Assembly: GCF_050320075.1 (NCBI RefSeq)
Contig: NZ_CP190018.1
DNA from: Escherichia coli
GTDB taxonomy: Bacteria; Pseudomonadota; Gammaproteobacteria; Enterobacterales; Enterobacteriaceae
Reading direction: 5' to 3' (one strand)
DNA length: 64,000 bases
Part shown: one piece after another, positions 21,046-39,817 of the stretch
Layout of the letters: each line of letters opens with the position of its first letter
Numbering within the stretch: position 1 is the first letter of the stretch
Notes under the pieces: generated by a model
Told to the model about the DNA's origin: nothing
What the model saw: the letters and a program-made list of their open reading frames with translations, nothing else
Databases searched by the model: none
Program-made: the position numbers and the translations under genes

Positions 21046-21627
21046 TCATGTCTTTTCTAAAAAAAATCTTGATGAATATTGATGGGGAGGAACACCAAAA
21101 TATCTTCTGAAAACACTTACAAAATATGACGTGTTTTCATAACCGCATATCTCAGCAACTTTTCCAACAGAATATAAATTGTAGCTTAATAACCTTTCCG
21201 CCATCACCATTCGCTCTTCAAGAATTAACTTACTAAATGATAAGCCTTCGTGCTTTAATTTTCTTTTTAACAGACTTTCACTCAGATACAGTCTTGAAGA
21301 TATATCACAAAGTCTCCATGCTGCAGATATATCCGTGTGAATAATAGCCTTAACTTTACTTCCTAAACTATTAAGACATCCAAATAAAAAACTTTGCACT
21401 ATTTTCTCTGAAGATAAGATAGCAAGACATGCAAGTGATATTTGATTTCTAACAAAATCCACAGTTCTGCCATCACAATTCAAGCATGCAATCAAGTTCT
21501 TTAACAATGAAAAATCTTCACATTCCACCATCAAGTATGCCGGATAAAACCTTCTTACAGAAAAAGGTGAGAGTGTGTTGCTTTTAAAGAAATCATTAAC
21601 TGTTTTCTCTTCAACATCTACGATCAT
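21046..21627 (-). CDS. AraC-family transcriptional regulator (prophage cargo)
   Basis: 193-aa ORF with C-terminal AraC-type HTH region (...LSYNLYSVGKVAEICGYENTSYFVSVFRRYFGVPPHQY); ~30% GC. Confidence 0.75.
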   Translation of the reverse strand: MIVDVEEKTVNDFFKSNTLSPFSVRRFYPAYLMVECEDFSLLKNLIACLNCDGRTVDFVRNQISLACLAILSSEKIVQSFLFGCLNSLGSKVKAIIHTDISAAWRLCDISSRLYLSESLLKRKLKHEGLSFSKLILEERMVMAERLLSYNLYSVGKVAEICGYENTSYFVSVFRRYFGVPPHQYSSRFFLEKT

Positions 21628-22121
21628 TGCATGATCTATATTTGATGAAAAAAATCTTTTAAATTTTAATCAATGAGAACAGCACTTCCTTTTTTAAATA
21701 AAATATCTTCTTTACCAATTCGGACATCAAACGAGTTCAACACCAAAATGATAGAACATATGTATGGCATATTATCCACCTGATATCATTGGGGTTACAC
21801 CAAGTAAGTATAGGTGGAAAATCAATATTCGCCAGTTCAACAATAAGGAAAATCTCATTGCATCACAAGTATAAAATTATGTATTTAACTCACAAAGACA
21901 AATTATTAAACCAATCTGTTATATTATATATAGCTGCGTGGAATCATAATATTATATATTTTGACTGGCATGTTTACCAACTTTAAGTTGCATCTCAATG
22001 GTTTCTTCAGCGTAAACAGAGTTTTTATACAAACTGACACTCTGGGTATCATAGTGTAGTTTTTACGATTGTAAATATCCTGCATGCAGGAACTCATCCT
22101 TTTGGATGATATCGCATACAA

Positions 22122-23081
22122 TTAATTTACCATCAGTCTTAGAGCCAGTTCGTCCGGATAGGGATCGAAGTAATTCTGTGTAAGCAAGTAATCATTAGGA
22201 TACTCACCCAGATAATGCTTCAGCAGAGTCAACGGCGCAAGAAGAGGTAATGTGCCAGAACGATAGTTAAGTATAACCTCGCTCAACTCTTTACGCTGGC
22301 GTGTACTTAAGTAGTTACTAAAATACCCCTGTATATGCATCATCACATTCGTGTGATTTTTACGTGATGCAGGTTTTCTGAGAATCGCCATCAGCTTATC
22401 ACGATACACCTCAAAGTATGATTCAAGGTCCGCCCACTCGTGTATTGCAGCCACAAATGGTCCCATATCTTTATAGCCTGCCTGACTATGCGCCAACAAC
22501 TGAAGCTTATAACGACTATGAAAAGCTAATAACTCTCTTCTTGATAATTTCTCCTTGTAAAGGTGATTGAGCTCATGCAAAGCAAAAACTCTTTCAACAA
22601 AATTCTCACGAAGCACTGGATCATGTAATCGCCCATCCTCTTCAACCGGTAGCCAGGAAAACTTTTCCATCAAAGTGCTCGTAAATAGTCCCACTCCATC
22701 TTTACGACCTCGATTACCATTTTCATCATAGACACGCACGCGCTCCATGCCACAGCTGGGAGATTTAGCACAAACCACAAACCCCGATACATCCTTTAAT
22801 TTGTCCATATAAGAACGACTAAACTCTGTCATTCTCTCTGTCACATCCTCATTCTGGTCGTGGCTGAAACACATCCGTATATTTCCTTGCGTCGAGCGCA
22901 CAAGACGTAGAGCAGGACGCGGAACTGGCAGCCCTATAGCCATTTCCGGACATACTGGTCTGAATGTTACCCATTCCACTAATTTGTCCATTAAAAAGTC
23001 AGCTCTTTTGTGACCACCATCAAAACGAACAGCAGAACCGGCCAGACAACCGCTGATTCCAATCACAGGTTTTTTTATCAT
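22122..23081 (-). CDS. DUF523/DUF1722 (YbgA-like) family protein, Cys-rich N-terminal half (prophage cargo)
   Basis: 319-aa ORF MIKKPVIGISGCLAGSAVRFDGGHKRADFLMDKLVEWVTFRPVCPEMAIGLPVPRPALRL... resembles YbgA-type DUF523-DUF1722 proteins. Confidence 0.7.
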   Translation of the reverse strand: MIKKPVIGISGCLAGSAVRFDGGHKRADFLMDKLVEWVTFRPVCPEMAIGLPVPRPALRLVRSTQGNIRMCFSHDQNEDVTERMTEFSRSYMDKLKDVSGFVVCAKSPSCGMERVRVYDENGNRGRKDGVGLFTSTLMEKFSWLPVEEDGRLHDPVLRENFVERVFALHELNHLYKEKLSRRELLAFHSRYKLQLLAHSQAGYKDMGPFVAAIHEWADLESYFEVYRDKLMAILRKPASRKNHTNVMMHIQGYFSNYLSTRQRKELSEVILNYRSGTLPLLAPLTLLKHYLGEYPNDYLLTQNYFDPYPDELALRLMVN

Positions 23082-23273
23082 ATCCTCCCCCTTGACTAAT
23101 TCATTAACACATAAACTGTGTAGTGCACGGAATAAATTGCCTTTCTGGCGTCATCACTGACAATTTTTCTGTTATGGACTATTCCTAATATAGTATGAAA
23201 GTTCTTTAAGTGATCGGTCGTAATCATCTATCTTTCATACTTACTCTCAACTATCAAAAGTACAGGATTTATT

Positions 23274-23798
23274 ATGAAGTTATGGCCTGTGTTGACTGGC
23301 ATTGCACTCTCTTTCACTCTTATAGCATGTAAGGCCCCGACACCACCTAAAGGTGTGCAGCCGATTACAAATTTTGACGCCAACCGCTACCTCGGAAAGT
23401 GGTATGAAATAGCTCGCCTCGAGAACCGGTTCGAACGTGGTCTGGAACAGGTCAGCGCTACTTATGGAAAACGGAACGACGGAGGGATTCGTGTACTTAA
23501 CCGTGGATACGATCCAACGAAAAATAAATGGAGCGAGAGCGAAGGTAAAGCATACTTTACTGGAGATACTAAAACTGCAGCGTTGAAGGTTTCGTTTTTT
23601 GGCCCCTTCTATGGTGGCTATAATGTAATCAAACTGGATGATGAGTATAAGTATGCTCTTGTCAGTGGTCCGAACAGAGAATACCTATGGATTCTGGCAA
23701 GGACCCCAACTATTCCAGATAAAGTAAAAGCAGACTATGTGCGAACCGCTCAAAAGTTGGGATTCAATGTCAATGAATTATTATGGGTTAAACAATAA
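23274..23798 (+). CDS. Bacterial lipocalin (Blc-like outer-membrane lipoprotein) paralog (prophage cargo)
   Basis: 174-aa ORF with lipobox LIAC and NFDANRYLGKWYEIARLENRFERGLEQVSATYG...KVSFFGPFYGGYNVIKLDDEYKYALVSGPNREYLWILARTPT, closely resembling E. coli Blc. Confidence 0.85.
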   Translation: MKLWPVLTGIALSFTLIACKAPTPPKGVQPITNFDANRYLGKWYEIARLENRFERGLEQVSATYGKRNDGGIRVLNRGYDPTKNKWSESEGKAYFTGDTKTAALKVSFFGPFYGGYNVIKLDDEYKYALVSGPNREYLWILARTPTIPDKVKADYVRTAQKLGFNVNELLWVKQ

Positions 23799-23835
23799 AA
23801 TCCCTACCCGAAATAATACTTATTAGAATAAATAT

Positions 23836-23859
23836 CCTCCGGCATAGCCGGAGGTTTTT
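23836..23859 (+). terminator. Rho-independent terminator downstream of the lipocalin gene
   Basis: CCTCCGGCATAGCCGGAGG hairpin followed by TTTTT. Confidence 0.7.
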
Positions 23860-23865
23860 CAAATG

Positions 23866-24575
23866 CGCCTATAAGGCTCTCTTACCAGCCGCGCCCTAAC
23901 AGGCGCACACGATCTGACATTTGCATCCAACTTCGTTACTTACGGCCCGTAAACGGGCTGCCCGGATAGGGAATCGATAACTGCTCTCCCATTTTATCCT
24001 CTTCAAGCTGGTGCTTTATGTAGTCCTGTATCTTCGCCGTGTTCTTACCCACCGTATCGACATAGTACCCTCGGCACCAGAACTCCCTGTTTCTGTATTT
24101 GAATTTCAAATCCCCAAACTGCTCGTAAAGCATCAGACTGCTTTTCCCTTTCAGATATCCCATAAAGCCGGATACGCTCATTTTGGGTGGGATTTCCACA
24201 AGCATATGGATATGATCTGCGCAGCACTCTGCTTCCAGAATCCGTACGCTTTTCCACTCACACAGCTTTCTCAAAATACTGCCTATCGCCCTACGCTTCT
24301 CTCCGTAAAACGCCAGTCTTCGGTATTTCGGCGCAAAAACTATGTGATATTTACAGTTCCAGCGGGTGTGCACTAAGCTCTTTTCGTCCCCCATTGGGAC
24401 CCCCTTTTGATTTCTTGTTTGACACTTGCAGTTGCCAGACCGCAAGGTGTTTTAACAAATCAAAAGGGGTTTTAATAACTGGCTCAAAGCTGAAAGCTTT
24501 CCGGAACCCCCAGCCTAGCTGGGGGTTTTCTGTGCACAAAAAAACCAGCCTTTGGGGAGGCTGGCTAAATCAGGA
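23866..24575 (-). mobile_element. IS200 insertion sequence (boundaries approximate)
   Basis: Contains the IS200 TnpA gene plus end hairpins (GGCCCGTAAACGGGC near 23945; CCCCCAGCCTAGCTGGGGG and CCAGCCTTTGGGGAGGCTGG near 24500..24570). Confidence 0.8.
23936..24394 (-). CDS. tnpA: IS200/IS605-family Y1 (HUH) transposase TnpA
   Basis: MGDEKSLVHTRWNCKYHIVFAPKYRRLAFYGEKRRAIGSILRKLCEWKSVRILEAECCADHIHMLVEIPP... matches IS200 TnpA (152 aa). Confidence 0.93.
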   Translation of the reverse strand: MGDEKSLVHTRWNCKYHIVFAPKYRRLAFYGEKRRAIGSILRKLCEWKSVRILEAECCADHIHMLVEIPPKMSVSGFMGYLKGKSSLMLYEQFGDLKFKYRNREFWCRGYYVDTVGKNTAKIQDYIKHQLEEDKMGEQLSIPYPGSPFTGRK

Positions 24576-24664
24576 AACAAGCTGTTATATGATAATAACT
24601 ACGTTGCGATTCCAACATTTAAAATGTTAGACTAATGAGAATCAGACAGCAACTTTTCCTTTAA

Positions 24665-25057
24665 TTATTTCGAACAATCAGCATCCATCTCCAATCGGAG
24701 ATCCAACACCATCAGCATACCCTCCACTACGCCCTCAGCTTTCTGGAGCATCCTGCCAACCCAACAATCAGATCGCCCATGCTTACGTGCAAGCGCCATA
24801 AAAGTCATGCCGCCGACATAATAGTCCACCAATAAATCATGCAAATCGCTGTTGTTCTTTTTCAGACGGGCCATGCACCCGCAAATGATCATCGCGTCAT
24901 CGTCACAACATTGTGGGCGAGATTTTACTTTTGAAGGAATTAATCCCTTAAAACCGGCGGCAATGGACGACCAGGTCACATCTTCATGATTATTAGCCGC
25001 CCACGCTCCCCAACGCTCAAGAACCATCTGAATATCACGCATCAACTTACTCCACAA
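24665..25057 (-). CDS. Late-gene antiterminator Q (phage-82 / DLP12 QuuD type); possible start at the MRDIQM Met
   Basis: ORF (MWSKL)[62 protein letters not shown]... resembles QuuD. Confidence 0.8.
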
Positions 25058-25264
25058 AACTCAGACCAGAACGCCAATTACAAGCAAAAATCAACAAAAC
25101 AGTATTAGTTGATTGTTATCTCTGACTTCATACTCCTGCTCCTGTCAGGGTTTTGGCGTAATTCTTCAGTATTCGGTAATCGGTCAAAACAGAACCAGGG
25201 AAACGATATAAGCGCAGGCGCATCCAGCGGTGGCGAAGAAGTTCTGCCATATAAAACTCAAACA

Positions 25265-25627
25265 TCATTCATCTCCCTGTTCAGTGATGGTCAGTTCCAG
25301 CTTTCCACCTTTGACAACCGGCATCTTCACAACGCGGTAATCAACGACCTGAGCATCATCCAACCAGAAACCTGCTTTGGTGAGTGCGTCAAAAGCGGCC
25401 TTTTGTAGATTATCCAGGTCACGGCGACGGCGATCCGGCATGTGACACTCAATGCGGATTTTCACAGGCATAGCCAGGCCGATATCCAGCATTGCGTTTT
25501 TAATGATTCGGGCGACGTTTTCGCGGTATGCCTGCCCCTCTGCGCTGATGTGCGTGCGCCCGCGATTATGGCGGTAATAGCGATTATTGCTCGGCGGCCA
25601 GGGTAATGTGATATTGTAGGTATTCAC
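25265..25627 (-). CDS. rusA: Holliday-junction resolvase RusA
   Basis: 120-aa [57 protein letters not shown]... matches DLP12 RusA. Confidence 0.92.
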
Positions 25628-27905: not shown

Positions 27906-29432
27906 TCAAAAATAAACCTCACCATCAACCATATATTTGAGAGTACTTATCGCCTGCTGGGCGGATATTATTTTCATTAAAGGATAGTGTTTAAAAACAA
28001 TGCCATTCATAAAATAGATATCACAGGTTTTATTATCTGTATTGATTATGATTTTTTCGAATGTTTTATAGGCAAGTGTACGACATAGCTCTCGCCCATT
28101 TTTACTGGTTAAGTCAATAGCATGAAAATCACCAAGTGAACTCACCGCTTTACTCTTCAAAGTTTTTAATGATACAGAAGCCCTTCGTAATTCCTTATCT
28201 AATACTCTGATTTTTTCTGCTATAGCGGTAACTTCAGGCGCAACAGATAATGCAGCAATTAAATTATTAATTTTCATCTGGAGCTCAATAATTTTCAACT
28301 CTAAAGTTTCATTAGCATCTTTCTTGTTTTCAACTGGTTGGATTTTACTACAATTAAAAAGCAACTCATTAATGATATTATAATCAACCAAATCTCTCTT
28401 TATTGATGGCCTGTCACATCGATGCAGTCTTCTCATCGGACAAACATAATAGCCATGCAAACTTCCAGATACCGCATGAACAATCATGGTATTACCACAA
28501 GCCTCGCACTTCATAACTGTTCGAAGTAGATTTATCAACATAGGATTTTTGCTACTATTGCTAATACCAAAAGGTGCCAACCGAATTTCCTGCACAGCGT
28601 AAAACAAATCATCTGATATGACTCTGGGATAATAGCCAGCGATTTCACTTATTCCTTTACCTCTTGCACGATATGAAGGTACGCATATACCTATCAGAGC
28701 TTTATTCGCTAATAATTTTTCAATTACAGAAGGTCCCCATGCACTTTCTTTTCCTGAGAAATTCTTTACAGCATGATCATTTAAATACTTGGCTATTGCA
28801 TTCAATGAGCGCCTTTCCATCCTGAGTTTAAAAATTAGCTCAATAGTTTTCACCCTGTCGGGGTCTGGAACAAAAGCCGTTCTTTTGTCATCCAATGAGA
28901 GCCATCTCGGACAAGACGCCGTCATAATCGTGCCTGACTCCAGTGCATCCTGCCGTTTTTTCTTCCATGATAATTTAACCCGACTTGACTTTATCTCGCT
29001 TTCTTCATTTGCCCTTTGTGCTATAAGTATGGCTTTTATTAATGAATATGGCTCATTCAATGAGTCAATATTATAGACTGTATTATCGCAAAGAGTTATA
29101 ACATCAATACCGTGATTCAAAATCAATTTCAGACGCTCAATCGCTTCACCGACTTTTTCTCTTGAAAGTCTGTCCAGACTTTCAACTAACAATGTAGTCC
29201 CTGGCAATATATAACCATGTTCTATAGCATCTAAAAATTCCGAAAAAGCTCCTGATTGTGCATGCTTTCCATTGAATGCGCTTAACCCCAAATCTTCATA
29301 CGTTACGGTATCAAGGTAATAATCACTATTTACCTTTAGCCATTCAGTAATAAGCCTTCTCTGGCGGTTTAATGAATCACCAGACATCTGACCTGGTGAT
29401 GAAAATCGCATATATGCTATGGCTTTTTTCAT
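27906..29432 (-). CDS. Large serine recombinase (resolvase/invertase catalytic domain plus recombinase and Cys-rich zinc-ribbon-like domains), DLP12 YbcK type
   Basis: 508-aa ORF MKKAIAYMRFSSPGQMSGDSLNRQRRLITEWL... (catalytic Ser in RFSSPGQ) with downstream CEACGN...CPMRRLHRCDRP cysteine cluster; low GC. Confidence 0.85.
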   Translation of the reverse strand: MKKAIAYMRFSSPGQMSGDSLNRQRRLITEWLKVNSDYYLDTVTYEDLGLSAFNGKHAQSGAFSEFLDAIEHGYILPGTTLLVESLDRLSREKVGEAIERLKLILNHGIDVITLCDNTVYNIDSLNEPYSLIKAILIAQRANEESEIKSSRVKLSWKKKRQDALESGTIMTASCPRWLSLDDKRTAFVPDPDRVKTIELIFKLRMERRSLNAIAKYLNDHAVKNFSGKESAWGPSVIEKLLANKALIGICVPSYRARGKGISEIAGYYPRVISDDLFYAVQEIRLAPFGISNSSKNPMLINLLRTVMKCEACGNTMIVHAVSGSLHGYYVCPMRRLHRCDRPSIKRDLVDYNIINELLFNCSKIQPVENKKDANETLELKIIELQMKINNLIAALSVAPEVTAIAEKIRVLDKELRRASVSLKTLKSKAVSSLGDFHAIDLTSKNGRELCRTLAYKTFEKIIINTDNKTCDIYFMNGIVFKHYPLMKIISAQQAISTLKYMVDGEVYF

Positions 29433-29687
29433 GGTGACACCTGCTAAAGTATGCTTTTATAAACCTTAGTGGTGAGATATGATTTTTGTTTAATTTTTAT
29501 TTAAAAAGACAATTAAGGTCACATTATCTTGAATATACAACAATAATCGTATTGCAATTTTCTTACACCATAATCTTGAAAGCACAAAAGAATGAATAAA
29601 AACTAAAGACATTAACAAAAAGCATAAAACGAGGCCCATATAAATATACGAACCTCCATATTTTAGTCGTTTAAAAACAAATTATTT

Positions 29688-30020
29688 TTAATGTGGCGTG
29701 CTTCGTGACAATAAATTAATAACCAACACACCGGCACAAATCAACATCATGCCTATAATGGCTGGCAGGTCCAATCGTTGGCCGAAAAATCCCCATGATA
29801 GTAAGCTAATCAGGACAATACCGACTCCTGACCAGATAGCATAAGCAATCCCTGTAGGAATATAAGCCAGCGTCTGAGCTAATAACCAGAATGATGCACA
29901 ATAACAAATAATTGTACCAACAGATGGCCATAACCGTGTAAAACCTTCTGAAAACTTCATTAAGGTTGTACCAATGACCTCTGCAAGTATTGCACCACCA
30001 AGATAAATATAAGGATTCAT
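29688..30020 (-). CDS. emrE: Small multidrug resistance (SMR) efflux protein EmrE
   Basis: MNPYIYLGGAILAEVIGTTLMKFSEGFTRLWPSVGTIICYCASFWLLAQTLAYIPTGIAYAIWSGVGIVLISLLSWGFFGQRLDLPAIIGMMLICAGVL... essentially identical to E. coli EmrE (110 aa). Confidence 0.95.
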   Translation of the reverse strand: MNPYIYLGGAILAEVIGTTLMKFSEGFTRLWPSVGTIICYCASFWLLAQTLAYIPTGIAYAIWSGVGIVLISLLSWGFFGQRLDLPAIIGMMLICAGVLVINLLSRSTPH

Positions 30021-30087
30021 AGCATATTCTTTCCTGTTCAAACTGGAGAGAATTGTACTACAGTTTGAACTCAACTCACCTGTTTCA

Positions 30088-30390
30088 TCATTGTGTACCC
30101 ATTGATGTTCTTTTATATACCCTCAATACCCGTTTCATCGCGGCACTCTGGCGACACTCCTTAAAAATCAAATTCGTGCTCACCTTTCCTTCCCATTCTT
30201 CTCTGGTAGCGAACCGATAATACACCGTTCGCCAGACCTTACCATCAACGACCAGGATTCCTGCCCGCGCCATTTTAGCCGCAGCCTGATTTATGCTGGT
30301 TACCGTTGCGCCTGTTACCGCGGCAACGTCCTGCGCACAGAATTTCTTATGAGTCCCCAGGTAATGAATAATTGCCTCTTTGCCCGTCAT
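30088..30390 (-). CDS. ren: Ren protein
   Basis: 100-aa ORF MTGKEAIIHYLGTHKKFCAQDVAAVTGATVTSINQAAAKMARAGILVVDGKVWRTVYYRFATREE... matches lambda Ren. Confidence 0.9.
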   Translation of the reverse strand: MTGKEAIIHYLGTHKKFCAQDVAAVTGATVTSINQAAAKMARAGILVVDGKVWRTVYYRFATREEWEGKVSTNLIFKECRQSAAMKRVLRVYKRTSMGTQ

Positions 30391-31088: not shown

Positions 31089-32104
31089 AGATCCACCCCG
31101 TAAATCCAGTCAGTGTTTGTCAGGTCGAGTTTTGGTTTGCCGACTGTCACGCCAGCCTGTTGCTTGTTCCGGTTGATTTCGAGCTGGGTCCACTTGTCGC
31201 GGAGTTTGGCCGGACTCAGCACGTTACCGGACCAGAAGTTGTCCTGGCAGGCCCAGCGGAACAGTACACACATGTCGCGGTGGTTACGTCCATCACGTTC
31301 ACGCATCAGACGGATATCGTTAGCCCACCCTGCAAAATTCGGTTTTCTGGCTGATGGCGCGATGGTCTTCACCATGTCAAACATCCACTCTGCGGCGGTC
31401 AGGTCTTCTGCTGTCCCCCACTTGCTGCCGCTCTGAATTGCAGCATCCGGTTTCACCACAGGAAGATCGTTTTCTGGTTGGTCAGAGGATTCGCCAGAAT
31501 TCTCGGACGAAAAAGGTTTTATATTGTCTTTTGTTAGTTTGTCTTTTGTGTTTACCTGATTCGGGTAAACGCCTTTACCTGATTTGGGTAAACTTTTTTT
31601 ACCTGATTCAGGTAAATTTACCTCTTTCAGGTAAACTTTATTTTTCTTACCTGATTCGGGTAATGTTGACCATTCACTGACCACATTATTAATGCCGGTA
31701 TTCCGCCCGCTCTGAATAAAAATCCCACGCTTTACCAGAACACTTTTTGCAGCAGAACACTTGTGCGGCAATATCCCGGTTAATTCGGAAAGTTGCTCGT
31801 TGCTAACCCAATCCAGTTTTTTATTAAAGCCATATGTTTTGCGCATGACAGCCAGAAAGACCAGAAGCTGGTGCTGTGTTAATCCGGCCAGCATCACAGC
31901 TTCCAGCAACTCATTTGCAATGCGCGTATAACCATCATCGAGATCTGCCACGCGCGGCTCCTTTTGTGCCTCATCCGGCACTGGAAAATTGAATATCTCA
32001 GCAGTGTTTGCCATAATTCCTTCCGCAATGAGTGCGTTACGATTTGCACCTGAAAGTCGGCTCTGTTCCCGCAGACCGGCTTTCGCCATTTCTGAACCTG
32101 TCAT
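31085..32104 (-). CDS. O: Replication initiator O (non-lambda N-terminal iteron-binding domain, lambda-like C-terminal P-interaction domain); alternative start at 32014
   Basis: 339-aa ORF whose C-terminal ~100 aa match lambda O; start overlaps the upstream ydaT-like stop in ATGA; ori iterons inside the gene. Confidence 0.88.
   Translation of the reverse strand: MTGSEMAKAGLREQSRLSGANRNALIAEGIMANTAEIFNFPVPDEAQKEPRVADLDDGYTRIANELLEAVMLAGLTQHQLLVFLAVMRKTYGFNKKLDWVSNEQLSELTGILPHKCSAAKSVLVKRGIFIQSGRNTGINNVVSEWSTLPESGKKNKVYLKEVNLPESGKKSLPKSGKGVYPNQVNTKDKLTKDNIKPFSSENSGESSDQPENDLPVVKPDAAIQSGSKWGTAEDLTAAEWMFDMVKTIAPSARKPNFAGWANDIRLMRERDGRNHRDMCVLFRWACQDNFWSGNVLSPAKLRDKWTQLEINRNKQQAGVTVGKPKLDLTNTDWIYGVDL
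31545..31660. repeat. Replication origin iterons inside O: about five ~18-bp palindromic repeats (TTACCTGATTCGGGTAAA-like) plus AT-rich tract
   Basis: Direct repeats seen in sequence: TACCTGATTCGGGTAAAC, TACCTGATTTGGGTAAAC, TACCTGATTCAGGTAAAT, ACCTCTTTCAGGTAAAC, TACCTGATTCGGGTAATG; position equivalent to lambda ori within O. Confidence 0.8.
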
Positions 32105-32646
32105 ATTGCCCCCAGCATGGTGGTAACCATCGCCATTAATGGACCAGCCAGATCCGGGTCCACACGAAACATCGACACAATACCTTCACTCATTTCCTTC
32201 AGTTTCTGGTGGCGTGGTGCGTTGAGAATGACCGCCTGCTTTGCCTCACAGAGTTCCTTTTCCATTTCAGCCAGCCGAGCCATGAAGCTATCCTGCTCAA
32301 CCAGGTGGCCGCGATATTCCAGCGGTAGTACCGCCAGAATTGCCGGGGTCAGTTCACGCACGTTATTTCGGTATTTTTCAGAATCGAATTTGTTATCGAG
32401 GAAGCGGAACAGCTTCTGGCGTGCACGGCTGACATCATCAGGGAAATCGATGGTGCCGCCGCCCTGCTCCCGATACTCATTCACAATGAGTGCGGCAACA
32501 ACATCCTGATTATCTGCAGCCGACCACGCGCGAACGGCATCACGGATTTTTTCGTGGCCTGGCACCTGTTTTATTTGAGAACGATTTATCACCGCAGTCG
32601 GGCTAAATCCGCTAGTCTGTTGGTATGTAAGTGGTTGCATAGTCAT
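32101..32646 (-). CDS. YdaT-like protein (Rac-prophage ydaT family) in the cII position
   Basis: 181-aa ORF containing ...ELTPAILAVLPLEYRGHLVEQDSFMARLA..., resembling Rac YdaT as I recall it. Confidence 0.6.
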   Translation of the reverse strand: MTMQPLTYQQTSGFSPTAVINRSQIKQVPGHEKIRDAVRAWSAADNQDVVAALIVNEYREQGGGTIDFPDDVSRARQKLFRFLDNKFDSEKYRNNVRELTPAILAVLPLEYRGHLVEQDSFMARLAEMEKELCEAKQAVILNAPRHQKLKEMSEGIVSMFRVDPDLAGPLMAMVTTMLGAI

Positions 32647-32670
32647 TGCCTTATCAGTTAACGCCGCAGT

Positions 32671-32904
32671 TTAGGCGGCAGAATTACTCGCGTTAAACAA
32701 TGGTGCAAGGTCGGGACGAATATCTGCTGGTTTAATCTTTCCACCAGTGGCTGAGACAATTTTCATTACATAGCGGGCATCAATTCCGCCACCGTGTAGC
32801 CAACGCCAAACAGTGGGCTGGGCTACACCGCATAGATCTGCCAGTCGTTTTTGACTACCTGTAATACTGATTGCGAGTTGAATGGTTTGATTTGTCATTA
32901 TCAA
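32671..32904 (-). CDS. Cro/YdaS-like HTH DNA-binding protein (lytic-side regulator)
   Basis: 77-aa ORF ...QKRLADLCGVAQPTVWRWLHGGGIDARYVMKIVSATGG... (helix-turn-helix), divergent from the repressor gene. Confidence 0.75.
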   Translation of the reverse strand: MIMTNQTIQLAISITGSQKRLADLCGVAQPTVWRWLHGGGIDARYVMKIVSATGGKIKPADIRPDLAPLFNASNSAA

Positions 32905-33008
32905 TTCCTATTGGTATTACAATGAATGGATAATAGCAATGCGTATTAATCCAATCAATAGCAAAACGTGTTTTGACCATCAATACGCAAGCGTATAAAT
33001 TAAAACTT
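32905..33008. promoter_or_regulatory. Immunity-region divergent promoter/operator region (OR equivalent) with ATACGC/GCGTAT half-sites including the palindrome ATACGCAAGCGTAT (32983..32996)
   Basis: AT-rich 104-bp spacer between divergent cro-like and cI-like genes; repeated half-sites seen in sequence; operator assignment is inferred. Confidence 0.5.
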
Positions 33009-33701
33009 ATGAAAAAAGAAACTCTTGCTGATCGCTTAAACCTAGCGATGGAACAATCTGGAATGTCTCAAGGCGCTCTTGCAAAGGCGTCTGGCGTAGC
33101 TCAACCCACAATCTGGAGACTGACAAGCGGCAACGCACGCGGCTCAACAAAAATTGTTGAAATAGCTAATGCATTGGGTGTTCGAACAGAGTGGCTCTCA
33201 TCAGGCATAGGCCCGATGAGAAATGACGGTCAACAATCAGGGAAGCCTGCTGTCAACCATTCCAAATACTTCAAAATTGACGTTCTTGATATAGAAGTCA
33301 GTGCTGGGCCGGGTGTCATCAACCGTGAGTTTGTAGAAGTCCTACGCTCGGTTGAGTACTCGTTTGACGATGCTCGTCACATGTTCGATGGCAGGAAGGC
33401 AGAAAATATCCGCATCATTAACGTACGCGGTGACAGCATGTCAGGAACGATCGAACCAGGTGATCTTCTGTTCGTTGATATCACTGTTAAATCTTTCGAC
33501 GGTGATGGTATCTATGCGTTTCTGTACGACGACACAGCCCATGTAAAGCGCCTGCAAATGATGAAGGATAAGCTGCTGGTTATCTCTGATAACAAGAGCT
33601 ACTCACCGTGGGACCCGATCGAAAAAGACGAAATGAATCGGGTATTTATATTTGGGAAAGTTATTGGGAGTATGCCACAGACATATAGAAAACATGGGTA
33701 G
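33009..33701 (+). CDS. CI-type prophage repressor (N-terminal HTH, C-terminal S24 LexA-like autopeptidase domain)
   Basis: MKKETLADRLNLAMEQSGMSQGALAKASGVAQPTIWRLTSGN... plus C-terminal RGDSMSGTIEPGDLLFV...VKRL motifs and a candidate Ala-Gly cleavage site (VSAGPG); not lambda cI. Confidence 0.88.
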   Translation: MKKETLADRLNLAMEQSGMSQGALAKASGVAQPTIWRLTSGNARGSTKIVEIANALGVRTEWLSSGIGPMRNDGQQSGKPAVNHSKYFKIDVLDIEVSAGPGVINREFVEVLRSVEYSFDDARHMFDGRKAENIRIINVRGDSMSGTIEPGDLLFVDITVKSFDGDGIYAFLYDDTAHVKRLQMMKDKLLVISDNKSYSPWDPIEKDEMNRVFIFGKVIGSMPQTYRKHG

Positions 33702-33807
33702 ATTATTAATGACAGATTTCATCAAGATAACCAGATGATGTTTTGGTGAGACATGCTGACATCCTCATAATTTATAGAATGGATGTTTCAAGCAGAGCTT
33801 AAGGTAT

Positions 33808-35415
33808 ATGGATATGTCAAAAAAAATTTTTGAATTCAAAAATTACCCAATAGTCTTTATTGGCTCAGGCATTTCAAAAAGATATTTAGAGAACTACCCA
33901 ACGTGGGAAGAGCTATTAAACGAGTATTGGAAAATAACAAATCCCACAAATGATTTCTATAGTTATCTTTTAACAATAAAAGAATCACATAAAAATAACA
34001 GTGATAATGATATCGATCATAAGATTTATACAGAGGCAGCAAGTAAAATTGAAAATGATTACAATCTATTGTTTAGGACTGGCAAATTAAAATTAAATGG
34101 ACTAGATGCCAAGAGGGTTTTTAGTGAAGATATTTCACCATTTAAATACGCCATATGCCAAAGATTTTCTAATAACACAATCAGAAAGGATGTAAATCTT
34201 GATGAATTAGCATCATTTAAAACATTAATAAAAAAGGCCAAGATAATCATCACTACAAATTATGATGCTTTCATAGAAAATTTACTTCAAGAGCAAAATG
34301 TAACTCCAAAACTCTATATTGGAAATAATGGTTTTTTCGAAGATACTATTGGCTGGAGTGAGTTATACAAAATACATGGTGATATAAAGGATCCACACTC
34401 AATAATCATAAATAAAGATGATTACGAAAAATATGACAACAAATCTATACTCATTAGTGCCAAGATACTATCTAACATGATTAAAAATCCAATAGTTTTT
34501 CTTGGATATTCTTTAACTGACAGGAATGTAAAGAAACTTCTTTCTGATTTTTCCTCACAACTACCTAGAGAAGATGGTCGAAAATCAGCTGAAAGAATAA
34601 TTTTGATTGAATATAAAGAGAATGAACAGGAAGTAGTACCAAAACAGATTACCGATCAACAGCTACAAATTACATATACATCTGTTAAAACAGATAACTA
34701 TAAACAGATCTATGATGAGATCAGTGCTGTTGATGAAGGGCTCTCACCTTATGATGTTTTAAGGTATCAAAGAGCCATTAAAACACTTATCATTAATGAG
34801 GGTGAAAAAGGGCACTTAGATACTCTATTGGTTTCACCTTCTGACTTAGACAGACTTGAAGAAAGTGTTAAACAAGGAAAAAATTTAGTTGTTGCTCTAG
34901 GCGATAAAAAGTATGTATTCACACAAGTTAAAGAAATAAATTATCTTGAAGACTACTTATTTAATAAAAATGAAATATCTAATAAATTAGCTATAGATTT
35001 CATATTAGGTTCAGTAAACTCATTACAACTTCCATTTTCAAAAACTATAACCTCATGTAATTTGAAAGAGTTAAGTTTGCCAGCTAAATATGTGTTAAAA
35101 CTAAATCAACGCATTGAACGCCACGGAAAACTAGACGACTTGCTCAATAAAATCACCTTAGATAAAATCAATGCAAATAAAATTTACACCAACATCAAAG
35201 ATATAAAGGATGCAAAGTTCAAAAAGTACAAAGAATTGTCTATAGTCATTAAGAACATAAAAAATATCCCCAAAGAGGAGATTGAAGATTATGTTAAAAA
35301 AGAAGCGTTTGTTCAATTCAAGGCATGCGACGTTGACAATTTAAAAACCCAGTATAGGAAACTATTTCTTGCCTACGACTTGTTGATTCATGGAAATGTT
35401 GAAAAGATAAATTAA
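33808..35415 (+). CDS. SIR2-like (sirtuin-family, SIR2_2-type) domain protein with uncharacterised C-terminal half; candidate single-gene anti-phage defence protein in the rexAB-equivalent position
   Basis: 535-aa ORF, about 28-30% GC; motifs FIGSGISK (res 17-24), IIITTNYD (N151), YKIHGD (H190), IVFLGYSLTD (229-238) with Asn-His spacing of 39 as in defence-associated SIR2 domains; directly downstream and co-oriented with the repressor. Confidence 0.7.
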   Translation: MDMSKKIFEFKNYPIVFIGSGISKRYLENYPTWEELLNEYWKITNPTNDFYSYLLTIKESHKNNSDNDIDHKIYTEAASKIENDYNLLFRTGKLKLNGLDAKRVFSEDISPFKYAICQRFSNNTIRKDVNLDELASFKTLIKKAKIIITTNYDAFIENLLQEQNVTPKLYIGNNGFFEDTIGWSELYKIHGDIKDPHSIIINKDDYEKYDNKSILISAKILSNMIKNPIVFLGYSLTDRNVKKLLSDFSSQLPREDGRKSAERIILIEYKENEQEVVPKQITDQQLQITYTSVKTDNYKQIYDEISAVDEGLSPYDVLRYQRAIKTLIINEGEKGHLDTLLVSPSDLDRLEESVKQGKNLVVALGDKKYVFTQVKEINYLEDYLFNKNEISNKLAIDFILGSVNSLQLPFSKTITSCNLKELSLPAKYVLKLNQRIERHGKLDDLLNKITLDKINANKIYTNIKDIKDAKFKKYKELSIVIKNIKNIPKEEIEDYVKKEAFVQFKACDVDNLKTQYRKLFLAYDLLIHGNVEKIN

Positions 35416-35919
35416 ATAAACGCCCCGTACAAAGCGATGGCGGGGCTAATAAGTCATTTATGTATCATTTAGCAACTGACTAAAAAAATACACATAAGAA
35501 CTCAGACTACCAATATTCGATTAAATTTGCTGCCAACCTACCGAGCTCACCACAACCCGATGCCCCTCTGTCACGAGGCACATTAAAGCTGTACAAATTT
35601 CAGCCACACCAATAAGTCTTCATACTCTTTTTTATAAAAATTCATTTAATTATCAATCAGAACAAGTATATCAAACATTATCAATACTAATTGCTATTGA
35701 CTACACCAATAGCTATTGCTATTGTCATGCTATTGCATCGATGTTGGTATCACAAAATTTATAACTTCACCGTTGCGATGACCGCTTAGATCCGCAGCTT
35801 GAATTTCAGCAGGCTCCGGGGAGTGCGAGGGGTGAAGCGGACGCGTGAACGTCGGTGTGACCAGCTGAAATCAACTCAACACTTCATACCTCAGTCGCTT
35901 CAACGAGGCGACTTAGTTA

Positions 35920-36209
35920 TGACAACCGGCGGCCATCCACCGCCTGAATACGCGCAGAAGTCTCTATATGTTCAGCAGCCCAGCTTACGGGCAGGAGTTT
36001 TTATGGTTCATCAACATTACGGAACGCAGACCGTTAATCGAGGTGCGGTCATGCCAGGAATGCTGGTCAAACACAAAGATGGTACCTGGACTGCATCAGC
36101 TAATTTACGCGGACGGCTATATCTGCATCGCGGCATCGAGCGCACTTATACCCGTGATTTGCTCGTGGAAGTTTTTCTCGACGGACGCGGTAACGGCCTG
36201 AATCACTAA
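35920..36209 (+). CDS. Hypothetical protein (96 aa from ATG; a TTG-initiated 136-aa version starts at 35799)
   Basis: [38 protein letters not shown]... with upstream GAGG; sits where lambda has N-ral-cIII-kil but resembles none of them. Confidence 0.35.
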
Positions 36210-36284
36210 TCCCCTTTCCTGTTTTCCTAATCAGCCTGGCATTTCGCGGGCGATATTTTCACAGCCATTTTCAGGAGTTCAGCC

Positions 36285-36581
36285 ATGAACGCTTATTACA
36301 TTCAGGATCGTCTTGAGGCTCAGAGCTGGGCGCGTCACTACCAGCAGATCGCCCGTGAAGAGAAAGAGGCAGAACTGGCAGACGACATGGAAAAAGGTCT
36401 GCCCCAGCACCTGTTTGAATCACTCTGCATCGATCATTTGCAACGTCACGGGGCCAGCAAAAAAGCCATTACCCGTGCGTTTGATGACGATGTTGAGTTT
36501 CAGGAGCGCATGGCAGAACACATCCGGTACATGGTTGAAACCATTGCTCACCACCAGGTTGATATTGATTCAGAGGTATAA
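36285..36581 (+). CDS. gam: Gam (RecBCD inhibitor; 98-aa short form)
   Basis: [60 protein letters not shown]... matches lambda Gam. Confidence 0.93.
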
Positions 36582-39214: not shown

Positions 39215-39817
39215 TCATTCAGTATCATCACGCGCGGTCTGTGCATATGTCACTACCGCACCTAATATATTAATTTTCTTTTCAACATAGATAATATTAT
39301 CGTACTCATAATTGCCATACGGATAGCAAATGCGAATATTCTCATGTAGATCGGGGTCATCCACCTCAGCTCCAGAACAACTTTTTGAACTACCGGAAGT
39401 ATACCGATACGGTGCAACATAAGACGATGTCTCTCCAGGCAAAAAATAAGTTAGTGTCGTAAGGGGTATAATCAGAAAAAATCCAGCAAATATGCACATC
39501 CCTGCATAAACCTTAAGGTATGCTGACAGACTCTTCCAGCCTCTTTGTTTTACTATCCCCTTCTTAACCCAAAACAGAGATAACAGAAAAGCTATTCCCA
39601 TGCTAAACAGAATGTAATAGTGGGATATACTCTGATTAAGAAACGTGACCCTGTAGATATCTGCCCGCCACCAGAAGAAAAGGAAAATAAAGATCAGCCC
39701 TGAAACTGTCATGCAAATCAAATAAGGATACGAATCTTTTTTCATGTTTAGCGCCCATAAAATTTTTCCTGACCCGGACAAATTTACCATCCATTTTTTG
39801 CGCAGAAAATAGCTCAT
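39215..39817 (-). CDS. Hypothetical polytopic membrane protein (prophage cargo; likely start at the MKKDSY Met, 39745)
   Basis: 200-aa ORF with at least three hydrophobic helices (LICMTVSGLIFIFLFFWW; YYILFSMGIAFLLSLFWV; VYAGMCIFAGFFLIIPLTTLTYFL) and a hydrophilic C-terminal domain; low GC; opposite strand to surrounding early-left genes. Confidence 0.55.
   Translation of the reverse strand: MSYFLRKKWMVNLSGSGKILWALNMKKDSYPYLICMTVSGLIFIFLFFWWRADIYRVTFLNQSISHYYILFSMGIAFLLSLFWVKKGIVKQRGWKSLSAYLKVYAGMCIFAGFFLIIPLTTLTYFLPGETSSYVAPYRYTSGSSKSCSGAEVDDPDLHENIRICYPYGNYEYDNIIYVEKKINILGAVVTYAQTARDDTE

What the first reader, a model, noticed from the sequence alone, without database searches (positions are those of the whole stretch)
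33808..35415. Candidate undescribed single-gene SIR2-family anti-phage system in the rexAB-equivalent slot downstream of the prophage repressor
This 535-aa ORF is the most AT-rich coding segment in the window (visibly ~28-30% GC against ~50% for surrounding phage genes), indicating recent horizontal acquisition. It lies immediately downstream of, and co-oriented with, the CI-type repressor, the position where lambda carries rexA-rexB and where lambdoid prophages commonly carry lysogen-expressed exclusion genes. Its N-terminal ~240 aa contain the hallmark order of SIR2_2-type sirtuin-like domains: a Gly-rich dinucleotide loop (FIGSGISK, res 17-24), TTNYD (Asn151), a catalytic-type HG (His190) 39 residues later, and IVFLGYSLTD. 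The same spacing occurs in the NAD+-degrading SIR2 domains of Thoeris ThsA and DSR proteins. The remaining ~290 aa match nothing I recognise. A lone mid-sized SIR2 effector with an unknown C-terminal domain, without TIR, HerA, pAgo or SLOG partners, does not correspond to a named system I know. It may act by NAD+ depletion and abortive infection on sensing an incoming phage.
Basis: partly seen in the sequence, partly recalled or inferred. Interest (0 to 1): 0.9.

Follow-up and report, generated by a model that had tools for sequence, protein, structure and literature searches.

The report
Prophage SIR2 defence candidate (PDC-S25)
A lambda-like E. coli prophage carries, right after its repressor gene, one AT-rich gene for a sirtuin-type NAD+-cleaving enzyme joined to a helical domain found only in this family; it is very probably an anti-phage gene, but it is already listed as an untested candidate (PADLOC PDC-S25), so it is a good target for experiments and not a discovery.

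Summary
ORF 33808-35415 (+) is real, though the true start is probably 33814 (533 aa). It has 29.6% G+C, the lowest of any 1.6-kb stretch in the window. It follows a CI-like repressor and precedes an O_L/p_L-type operator-promoter, so it sits where lambda has rexAB.

The N-terminal ~300 residues are a SIR2_2 domain (Pfam E=5.5e-23). N151 and H190 align with the catalytic N112 and H152 of ThsA, and the closest solved folds are the defence NADases DSR2 and ThsA. The C-terminal helical domain has no Pfam or PDB relative and occurs only in this ~530-aa architecture.

"Undescribed" is not correct. The protein matches PADLOC candidate PDC-S25 over its full length (E=6e-236) and PHROG 2695. The slot is a published defence hotspot. 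I found no experimental test of the family.

New here: the family is a lone-gene cargo of lysogeny modules in both enterobacterial prophages (cI then SIR2) and Firmicute prophages (repressor, ImmA, SIR2, integrase). At least 46 of 62 viral loci show this. Sibling E. coli prophages carry other defence-type cargo in the same slot.

Best reading: a lysogen-expressed, single-protein abortive-infection NADase whose C-terminal domain senses or regulates (confidence 0.55). Interest is moderate.

The parts
32101..32646 (-). CII-like activator gene (YdaT-domain); context, early-right operon
   Evidence: phrog_163 'CII-like transcriptional activator', E=7e-66. RefSeq calls it 'toxin YdaT domain-containing protein'.
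32671..32904 (-). cro-like HTH repressor gene, divergent from cI
   Evidence: phrog_35, E=6e-24. RefSeq annotates an HTH protein.
32893..32964 (.). O_R-type operator region between cro and cI, carrying CAATAGC/GCTATTG-type repeats
   Evidence: Repeat families D1, D6, I1, I2 and I6 link this region to 35676-35745. One exact GCTATTG lies at 32956. Promoter-like sites face both ways.
32973..33701 (+). CI-like prophage repressor (HTH + S24 peptidase); the annotated start is 33009
   Evidence: phrog_4 E=1.3e-69 and phrog_6201 'CI-like repressor' E=2e-46. RefSeq: XRE family regulator, 230 aa. Full-length copies occur in 718 E. coli genomes.
33702..35765 (.). Variable cargo segment: homology to sibling prophages stops at the cI stop codon and resumes at 35766
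   Evidence: blastn against L013, L014 and L015. The siblings carry TAC-like, HipA-like+DUF3037 (PDC-M66) or DUF6414 cargo here.
33808..35415 (+). SIR2-family gene (PDC-S25 family); probable true start 33814
   Evidence: ORF. PADLOC PDC-S25 E=6e-236 over 1-528. PHROG 2695 E=8e-204. Present in 165 of 5426 complete E. coli genomes at >=99% identity.
33808..34737 (+). SIR2_2 (DHS-like Rossmann) NADase-type domain, residues ~1-310, with GSG loop, N151 and H190
   Evidence: Pfam PF13289 146-285, E=5.5e-23. Alignment to ThsA 6lhx/8bto puts N151 on N112 and H190 on H152. Foldseek best hits are DSR2 and ThsA. Model pLDDT is mostly 85-97.
34930..35412 (+). All-helical C-terminal domain private to the family, residues ~375-535 (putative sensor/regulatory module)
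35422..35446 (+). G+C-rich hairpin 7 nt after the stop codon; possible weak terminator
   Evidence: RNA fold -14.3 kcal/mol, z=-1.4, poor U-tract. The scan reports a terminator-like site on the minus strand at 35436..35421. Weak evidence.
35676..35745 (+). O_L-type operator cluster overlapping a p_L-like promoter (TTGACT-17-TATTGT, 35697-35725) that faces kil-gam-bet-exo
   Evidence: Five of the window's 14 GCTATTG sites fall within 43 bp. Promoter scan. Homologous element in siblings.
36003..36209 (+). kil-like cell-division inhibitor, first annotated gene of the early-left operon (context; no N gene)
   Evidence: RefSeq annotation, mapped from L001 14196-14402.

Best explanation
The gene encodes one protein that acts alone as an anti-phage system of the abortive-infection or exclusion type, carried as cargo in the lysogeny module of a lambdoid prophage.

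Proposed steps:
1. It is transcribed in the lysogen, mainly by read-through from the repressor promoter. This is inferred: it is co-oriented with cI, separated by a 106-nt gap with no terminator, and lies upstream of O_L/p_L.
2. The N-terminal SIR2_2 domain is held inactive until infection (inferred).
3. The fast-evolving C-terminal helical domain, found only in this family, recognises a phage-derived cue. Most likely this is a phage protein, by analogy with DSR2 binding the tail-tube protein. Alternatively it controls oligomerisation (inferred).
4. The activated SIR2 domain hydrolyses NAD+ through the conserved Asn and His. This starves the infected cell and stops the superinfecting phage from replicating. 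The step is inferred from homology to ThsA, DSR2 and KomC.

Shown here: the fold, the catalytic residues, the lone-gene architecture, the position in the slot, and the recurrent placement in lysogeny modules. Not shown: expression, protection, NADase activity and the trigger.
For: - SIR2_2 domain, E=5.5e-23.
- The only sequence relatives in PDB are defence NADases: ThsA 1e-11 and KomC 9e-8.
- Catalytic N and H align with ThsA and are conserved in 42 homologues spanning 41-75% identity.
- Best structural matches are DSR2 and ThsA.
- Full-length match to defence candidate PDC-S25, which was derived from genes embedded in BREX, DISARM and type I RM loci.
- The slot lies between cI and O_L/p_L. 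It holds other defence-type cargo in sibling prophages that share a 96-97% identical repressor. The literature documents it as the rexAB / bstA / HigBAC defence locus.
- In Morganella, Kosakonia and S. suis the gene directly follows the prophage repressor, and in Listeria it lies between repressor and integrase.
- In 46 of 62 viral contigs a repressor or ImmA lies upstream, or an integrase downstream, within two ORFs.
- An E. faecalis copy sits beside RM and HepT/MNT genes.
- The C-terminal domain diverges faster than the catalytic core, 35% against 60%.
Against: - No experiment exists. PDCs are explicitly untested.
- Nothing shows the gene is expressed. At 29.6% G+C it is the kind of DNA that H-NS silences in E. 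coli (established knowledge, not tested here).
- The C-terminal domain never occurs with another effector, unlike typical modular sensors, so it may serve assembly or autoinhibition and not sensing.
- Its fold resembles only generic helical repeats, so no ligand can be inferred.
- Some SIR2 domains ADP-ribosylate macromolecules and do not deplete NAD+ (PMC9503650).
- The resident prophage has its own lambda-type virion genes, and no self-immunity mechanism is visible.
Confidence: 0.55

Rival explanations
1. It is a defence gene, but the SIR2 domain acts as an ADP-ribosyltransferase or other NAD+-consuming modifier of a specific macromolecule (phage or host protein, DNA or RNA). It would not work by depleting the NAD+ pool.
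For: Sirtuin domains in conflict systems can ADP-ribosylate targets, and this has been proposed for HerA-linked and Macro-linked sirtuins (PMC9503650). The helical C-terminal domain could be a substrate-binding module.
Against: The nearest relatives by sequence and fold (ThsA, DSR2, KomC) are all annotated as NAD+ hydrolases or NADases. No Macro or other de-ADP-ribosylating partner gene is adjacent.
Confidence: 0.15
2. It is prophage cargo with a job other than defence. For example, an NAD+-linked regulator of the lysis-lysogeny switch or of induction, which would fit its place between repressor/ImmA and integrase. Or a host-fitness or virulence moron.
For: It is placed inside lysogeny modules next to repressor, ImmA and integrase in most viral loci. 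bstA, in the same slot, was first linked to virulence phenotypes (PMC8585504).
Against: The gene also occurs outside lysogeny modules: after a PBSX-like lysis cassette and beside RM genes. The family was recovered from genes embedded in BREX, DISARM and RM loci. The slot holds interchangeable defence-type cargo, which argues against a role integral to the switch.
Confidence: 0.1
3. It is an orphan effector that needs an unlinked partner or a small-molecule signal made elsewhere, in the way ThsA needs ThsB. Alone it would do nothing.
For: The best sequence relative is ThsA, a signal-activated effector.
Against: There is no SLOG or other known ligand-sensor domain. No conserved neighbour exists across E. 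coli, Morganella, Kosakonia, Listeria, S. suis, Bacillus and Enterococcus. Only the CDS is conserved at DNA level. The gene moves as a single-gene cassette between unrelated prophages.
Confidence: 0.08
4. It is silent or decaying cargo: an AT-rich xenogene repressed by H-NS with no current function in E. coli.
For: 29.6% G+C. One genome has an IS1 insertion in the gene (H3). Many truncated entries exist, though most look like contig fragments.
Against: The gene is intact at >=99% identity and full coverage in 165 of 165 genomes, with one interrupted by IS1. Length and catalytic residues are conserved over 41-75% identity across phyla, which indicates purifying selection on the family.
Confidence: 0.07

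Closest known systems
PADLOC-DB candidate PDC-S25 (Payne et al. 2024, 'guilt-by-embedding' phage defence candidates) and PHROG 2695
   Same: Full-length profile matches: PDLC04967 E=6.3e-236 over residues 1-528 of 535, and phrog_2695 E=8e-204 over 1-533. Single-gene architecture.
   Different: None at sequence level; this protein is a member. PDC-S25 is only a bioinformatic candidate with no assigned mechanism or experimental support. PHROG 2695 is labelled 'unknown function'.
DSR2 (defence-associated sirtuin 2, Bacillus subtilis)
   Same: A single protein with an N-terminal SIR2 NADase domain followed by an all-helical C-terminal region. It is the best Foldseek PDB match (E=8e-10; TM ~0.6 to chains holding only the DSR2 SIR2 domain). 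It is the closest model for how this protein may work: phage protein binds the helical domain and NADase is switched on.
Thoeris ThsA (type I)
   Same: Closest sequence relative of the SIR2 core (PADLOC ThsA E=1.5e-21; PDB 6lhx E=1e-11). The catalytic N112 and H152 equivalents are conserved.
   Different: No SLOG domain. No adjacent TIR gene thsB. The match covers only residues ~147-288. It is not a member.
Lambda rexAB, Salmonella BTP1 bstA and E. coli HigBAC: cargo of the cI-to-p_L/N slot
   Same: Same genomic position: downstream of and co-oriented with the repressor, upstream of O_L/p_L. The literature treats this slot as a variable defence locus expressed with cI.
   Different: No sequence or domain relationship. 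RexAB is a sensor plus membrane channel, BstA is a DNA-binding Abi protein and HigBAC is a toxin-antitoxin-chaperone system. Here the effector is a SIR2 domain.
SIR2-HerA (Nezha), SPARSA (SIR2-APAZ/pAgo) and Kongming KomC
   Same: All use SIR2 domains of the same broad defence clade. There are weak matches to the core only: KomC 9e-8, Aga_SIR2 3e-4.
   Different: All are multi-gene systems. No HerA, pAgo or KomAB genes lie nearby.

Membership tests
PADLOC PDC-S25 (candidate single-gene system) | Full-length match to the PDC-S25 profile HMM | tested here: met
   PDLC04967 E=6.3e-236, residues 1-528 against profile 1-526 of 528. The second model PDLC04968 gives E=7e-85.
PADLOC PDC-S25 (candidate single-gene system) | Acts as a single gene, with no conserved partner | tested here: met
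   Neighbours differ in E. coli, Morganella, Kosakonia, Listeria, S. suis, Bacillus and Enterococcus. Only the CDS is conserved at DNA level. No ORF of 30 aa or more lies in 35416-35690.
PADLOC PDC-S25 (candidate single-gene system) | Confers phage resistance | not testable with these tools
   PDCs are described as untested or unvalidated. No experimental paper was found.
SIR2_2 / defence-type SIR2 NADase domain | Rossmann-type SIR2_2 domain with a Gly-rich loop and catalytic Asn and His | tested here: met
   PF13289 E=5.5e-23. G19-S20-G21 and N151 are invariant and H190 is kept in >=90% of 42 homologues. N151 aligns with N112 and H190 with H152 of ThsA 6lhx. The fold matches DSR2 and ThsA.
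SIR2_2 / defence-type SIR2 NADase domain | NAD+ hydrolase activity | not testable with these tools
   Needs an enzyme assay or NAD+ measurement.
Thoeris (ThsA/ThsB) | C-terminal SLOG domain that binds the cADPR-isomer signal | tested here: not met
   No SLOG hit in Pfam on the full protein or the C-terminal alignment. The C-terminal model is all-helical and matches only alpha-solenoids.
Thoeris (ThsA/ThsB) | Adjacent TIR-domain thsB gene | tested here: not met
   The flanking genes are cI and kil/gam/bet. No TIR gene appears in any sampled context.
DSR1 / DSR2 (defence-associated sirtuins) | Match to DSR profile HMMs; ~1000-aa protein with a long C-terminal sensor region | tested here: not met
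SIR2-HerA (Nezha) / SPARSA | Adjacent HerA ATPase or short pAgo/APAZ gene | tested here: not met
   None in the annotated neighbourhood or in other contexts. The PADLOC Aga_SIR2 match is weak and covers the core only (E=3e-4).
Canonical sirtuin protein deacylases (CobB/Sir2, Pfam PF02146) | PF02146 match and a Zn-binding Cys4 module | tested here: not met
   Only PF13289 matched. The protein has 3 scattered cysteines (117, 417, 507) and no CxxC pairs.
Cargo of the lambdoid cI-to-p_L slot (rexAB-equivalent) | Lies between the repressor gene and O_L/p_L, co-oriented with the repressor, within a segment that varies among otherwise homologous prophages | tested here: met
   Operator cluster and promoter at 35676-35745. 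Homology breaks at 33701 and 35766. Siblings carry alternative cargo.
Cargo of the lambdoid cI-to-p_L slot (rexAB-equivalent) | Co-transcribed with cI in the lysogen | not testable with these tools
   No terminator-like site and no significant structure in the 106-nt gap, which is consistent but not proof. RNA-seq or a 5'/3' end map is needed.

The most novel reading that the evidence does not exclude
PDC-S25 could be the founding example of a third class of defence-associated sirtuins. It would be a compact (~530 aa) single-protein NADase that temperate phages of both Gram-negative and Gram-positive bacteria carry in their lysogeny modules. Its private C-terminal helical domain would directly sense a conserved component of superinfecting phages. 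The resident prophage would then need an as yet unseen way to avoid triggering it on induction.
Probability: 0.4. Interest if true: 0.6.

Novelty: new variant of a known kind. Interest (0 to 1): 0.42.

Why it matters
If validated, this would add a small single-protein SIR2 system to the known NAD+-depleting defences. Its sensor domain is unrelated to those of ThsA, DSR1 and DSR2, which would give a new trigger-recognition module to study.

The gene sits in the lysogeny module of temperate phages from E. coli to Listeria, Streptococcus and Bacillus. It would therefore be a widespread means of prophage-versus-phage competition, and it would raise the question of how the carrier prophage escapes it on induction.

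In practice, about 3% of complete E. coli genomes carry it (165 of 5426), including some O157:H7 strains, so it could affect phage-therapy host range.

Its importance is limited because the family is already flagged by PADLOC and because SIR2-mediated NAD+ depletion is a well-established defence principle.

Tried and rejected
- Phage GenBank collection (megablast with the gene): no match, so no sequenced isolated phage in that set carries a near-identical copy.
- NCBIfam: no family.
- Rfam E-value scan of 32500-36500 for regulatory RNAs, put-like or nut-like elements: only a chance snoRNA hit at E=0.96.
- Vassallo et al. 2022 'Sir2 homologue': considered as a possible identity. Rejected because no PD-T4, PD-T7 or PD-lambda model of PADLOC matched.
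- C-terminal domain as a modular sensor shared with other effectors: rejected. All 110 profile hits among 1.84 billion representatives, and all significant AFDB50 matches, have the same SIR2 architecture or are fragments. P0213 is a contig-end fragment. P0226 is a lone 244-aa oddity on a contig with 1.3x coverage.
- Pfam RBB1NT hit on the linker (E=0.04-0.14): dismissed as chance.
- Hidden second gene or antitoxin in 35416-35690: only ORFs of 29 aa or less, and the region is not conserved with the gene in other genera.
- O_L/p_L apparently inside the variable segment: resolved. Siblings carry a homologous but diverged O_L/p_L allele.
- Brenes & Laub 2025 (E. coli prophage defence screen): could not be read because it is not held, so a test of this gene there cannot be excluded.
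- Searches for 'DSR3' or 'SIR2-only' systems: nothing relevant.
Full report
**1.

The ORF 33808..35415 (+) exists and encodes 535 aa. RefSeq annotates the identical gene from ATG 33814 (533 aa, 'SIR2 family protein', WP_167784488). That start is more plausible. An AAGG lies 9 nt upstream of it and only 3 nt upstream of 33808, and homologues begin M-x-x-K-I-F.

The gene has 29.6% G+C (GC3 25.9%) in a window of 49.9%. It is the lowest-GC 1.6-kb stretch of the whole window.

In an alignment of 42 homologues sharing 41-75% identity, G19, S20, G21, T149, T150, N151, Y152, D153 and G191 are invariant, and H190 is kept in at least 90%.

**2. What the protein is**

Pfam gives one domain, SIR2_2 (PF13289), at residues 146-285 with E=5.5e-23.

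By sequence, the only solved relatives are defence NADases: ThsA (6lhx E=1e-11; 8bto; 7uxt) and Kongming KomC. In the ThsA alignment, N151 and H190 fall on N112 and H152.

An AlphaFold model built on the 42-sequence alignment has mean pLDDT 83. It shows three parts:
- an alpha/beta SIR2 domain up to about residue 310;
- a poorly predicted linker at 335-371;
- a confidently predicted all-helical domain at about 375-535.

Foldseek against PDB puts DSR2 first (E=8e-10; TM about 0.6 to chains that hold only the DSR2 SIR2 domain), followed by ThsA.

The protein has only three scattered cysteines and no match to the canonical Sir2 family, so it is not a CobB-type deacylase.

**3. The C-terminal half**

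A profile of this region, searched against 1.84 billion representative proteins, found only 110 clusters. All are proteins of about 520-545 aa with the match at about 290-535, or shorter pieces. Of the two short pieces I checked, one is a contig-end fragment and one is an unresolved low-coverage singleton.

Foldseek against AFDB50 likewise returned only SIR2-family proteins of about 500-550 aa. These reach Fusobacterium, Segatella, Sulfurospirillum and a Methanococcoides archaeon.

So the domain is private to this architecture and is not a shuffled sensor module. It evolves faster than the catalytic core, with 35% against 60% mean pairwise identity.

**4. It is already catalogued**

PADLOC-DB gives a full-length match to PDC-S25 (E=6.3e-236), and PHROGs gives phrog_2695, 'unknown function' (E=8e-204). 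Matches to ThsA, Aga_SIR2 and PDC-S65 cover only the SIR2 core. No DSR, HerA-system or PD-T4/T7/lambda model matched.

The PDC set comprises 145 untested candidates derived from genes embedded in BREX, DISARM and type I RM loci (Payne et al. 2024). The DefensePredictor paper excludes them 'because they are unvalidated'. The only paper that names PDC-S25 merely lists it as a PADLOC prediction in an E. coli O157:H7 strain.

Seven further literature searches found no functional study of this family. The Brenes & Laub 2025 prophage screen could not be read.

**5. The slot**

The window is E. coli. The gene occurs in 165 of 5426 complete genomes, always on the chromosome and at 99% identity or more.

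It lies in a lambda-like prophage integrated next to ybhC. The prophage has lambda-type head, tail, O/P/ren, bet/exo/gam, xis/int modules and a DLP12-like nin/lysis region.

Upstream is a CI-like HTH+S24 repressor (phrog_4 E=1e-69), with cro-like and CII-like genes divergent from it.

Downstream, repeats of GCTATTG/CAATAGC link the cro/cI intergenic region to 35676-35745. Five of the 14 window copies of GCTATTG lie within 43 bp there. They overlap TTGACT-17-TATTGT, which faces kil-gam-bet-exo. The gene is therefore between cI and O_L/p_L, as rexAB is in lambda.

The 106-nt gap after cI has no terminator-like site or notable structure. Read-through from the repressor promoter is plausible but unproven.

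The same repressor, full length, occurs in 718 genomes. The allele at 99% identity or more is found in 165 genomes, the same number as carry SIR2. Three sibling prophages with a 96-97% identical cI lose homology exactly at the cI stop codon (33701) and regain it at 35766. Between these points they carry:
- a putative toxin, an MqsA-like antitoxin and SecB, which is the TAC architecture;
- a HipA-like kinase plus DUF3037, which matches PADLOC PDC-M66;
- a DUF6414 protein.

Each sibling has a homologous O_L/p_L, TTGATA-17-TATTAT.

The literature already describes this position as a mosaic hotspot and 'variable defence locus'. It holds rexAB in lambda, bstA in BTP1 and a validated HigBAC in an E. 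coli lambdoid prophage.

**6. The family sits in lysogeny modules across phyla**

Distant homologues are lone genes in these settings:
- directly after an HTH+S24 repressor in unrelated Morganella and Kosakonia prophages;
- directly after the repressor and just before the integrase in S. suis, and between repressor and integrase in a Listeria prophage;
- after the lysis cassette of a PBSX-like element in Bacillus velezensis;
- beside RM and HepT/MNT genes in E. faecalis.

A scan of IMG/VR found 98 viral contigs that encode a relative. I analysed 62 non-redundant loci. Ten downstream neighbour clusters, covering 31 loci, are all integrases. Upstream clusters are phage repressors (28 loci) or ImmA-like metalloproteases (16 loci). 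In total, at least 46 of 62 loci have such a neighbour within two ORFs, and 15 have both.

The typical Firmicute order is repressor, ImmA, SIR2, integrase, all co-oriented.

Only the coding sequence is conserved at DNA level between genera, so the unit that moves is the single gene.

**7. Composition**

Copies in Morganella, Kosakonia and other enterobacterial prophages, which are 60-75% identical in protein, are also about 30% G+C within flanks of 46-52%. The Firmicute copies match their hosts.

A foreign, low-GC origin is therefore supported. 'Recent' acquisition is not.

**8. Mechanism**

The best-supported reading is a lysogen-expressed, single-protein abortive-infection or exclusion system. 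An autoinhibited SIR2 NADase would be switched on when the C-terminal helical domain detects a phage cue. It would then deplete NAD+ through N151 and H190.

The catalytic domain, the lone-gene nature and the genomic logic are shown. Expression, protection, NADase activity and the trigger are inferred. The inference rests mainly on analogy with DSR2 (helical sensor binding the tail-tube protein) and ThsA.

Rival explanations:
- targeted ADP-ribosylation instead of NAD+ depletion;
- a non-defence role in the lysogeny switch;
- dependence on an unlinked signal;
- silent cargo.

**9. Verdict**

It is a typical member of PADLOC candidate family PDC-S25, sitting in a published defence hotspot.

Compared with experimentally characterised systems, it is a distinct architectural variant of the single-protein SIR2 defences. 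It fails the membership tests for Thoeris, DSR1/2, SIR2-HerA and SPARSA.

Interest is moderate (0.42). It is a clean, widespread and easily testable candidate with an unknown sensor domain, but a specialist would not be surprised by it.

Noticed in passing
window 35726-36003: No N-like antiterminator ORF lies between the p_L-like promoter and kil, the first annotated gene of the early-left operon. An Rfam E-value scan of 32500-36500 found no RNA element. How early-left transcription passes terminators in this prophage is unexplained.
   Followed up: partly
L013 5361-6871; L014 5352-6925; L015 5379-6378 (sibling E. coli prophages, same slot): With a 96-97% identical cI, the slot instead holds one of three cargoes: a putative toxin plus MqsA-like antitoxin plus SecB (TAC architecture); a HipA-like kinase plus DUF3037, which matches PADLOC candidate PDC-M66 (E=6e-15 and 4e-16); or a small ORF plus a DUF6414 protein with no PADLOC hit.
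   Followed up: partly
window 35676-35765 compared with L013 ~7000-7122, L014 ~7075-7196 and L015 ~6525-6647: The O_L/p_L allele linked to SIR2 is clearly diverged from the one shared by the three siblings, although the repressors are 97% identical. The exchanged segment seems to include the left operator, which may subtly change immunity specificity.
   Followed up: no
window 39215-39817 (-): A 200-aa ORF on the opposite strand in a 37-39% G+C patch between the TraR/DksA-like gene and xis. It matches phrog_1416 (unknown function) and has no PADLOC hit. It may be another moron.
   Followed up: partly
E. coli PSJ-14, NZ_AP027626.1 3412237-3414621 (hit H3): In this one genome an IS1 element interrupts the SIR2 gene, which matches the 195-aa fragment BEB26610.1. 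This is the only disrupted copy seen among the 165 genomes.
   Followed up: no
L017 368-1102: A 244-aa protein made of the C-terminal region only, with no SIR2 domain encoded upstream, on a 1.5-kb metagenome contig of 1.3x coverage. It could be a rare standalone version or an assembly artefact.
   Followed up: partly
window ~21200-25300 (L018 21229-22419 and L001 1-2587): An IS66-like ISCro1 element with tnpA and tnpB lies between two IS200 transposase remnants, in the region between the Q antiterminator and the lysis genes. The prophage may therefore be defective for late gene expression.
   Followed up: no
window 28000-30100: A second low-GC block (31-40%) holds DLP12-type cargo inside an otherwise lambda-like prophage at att-lambda: the ybcK recombinase gene, a small ORF and emrE. 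This shows a mosaic origin.
   Followed up: no
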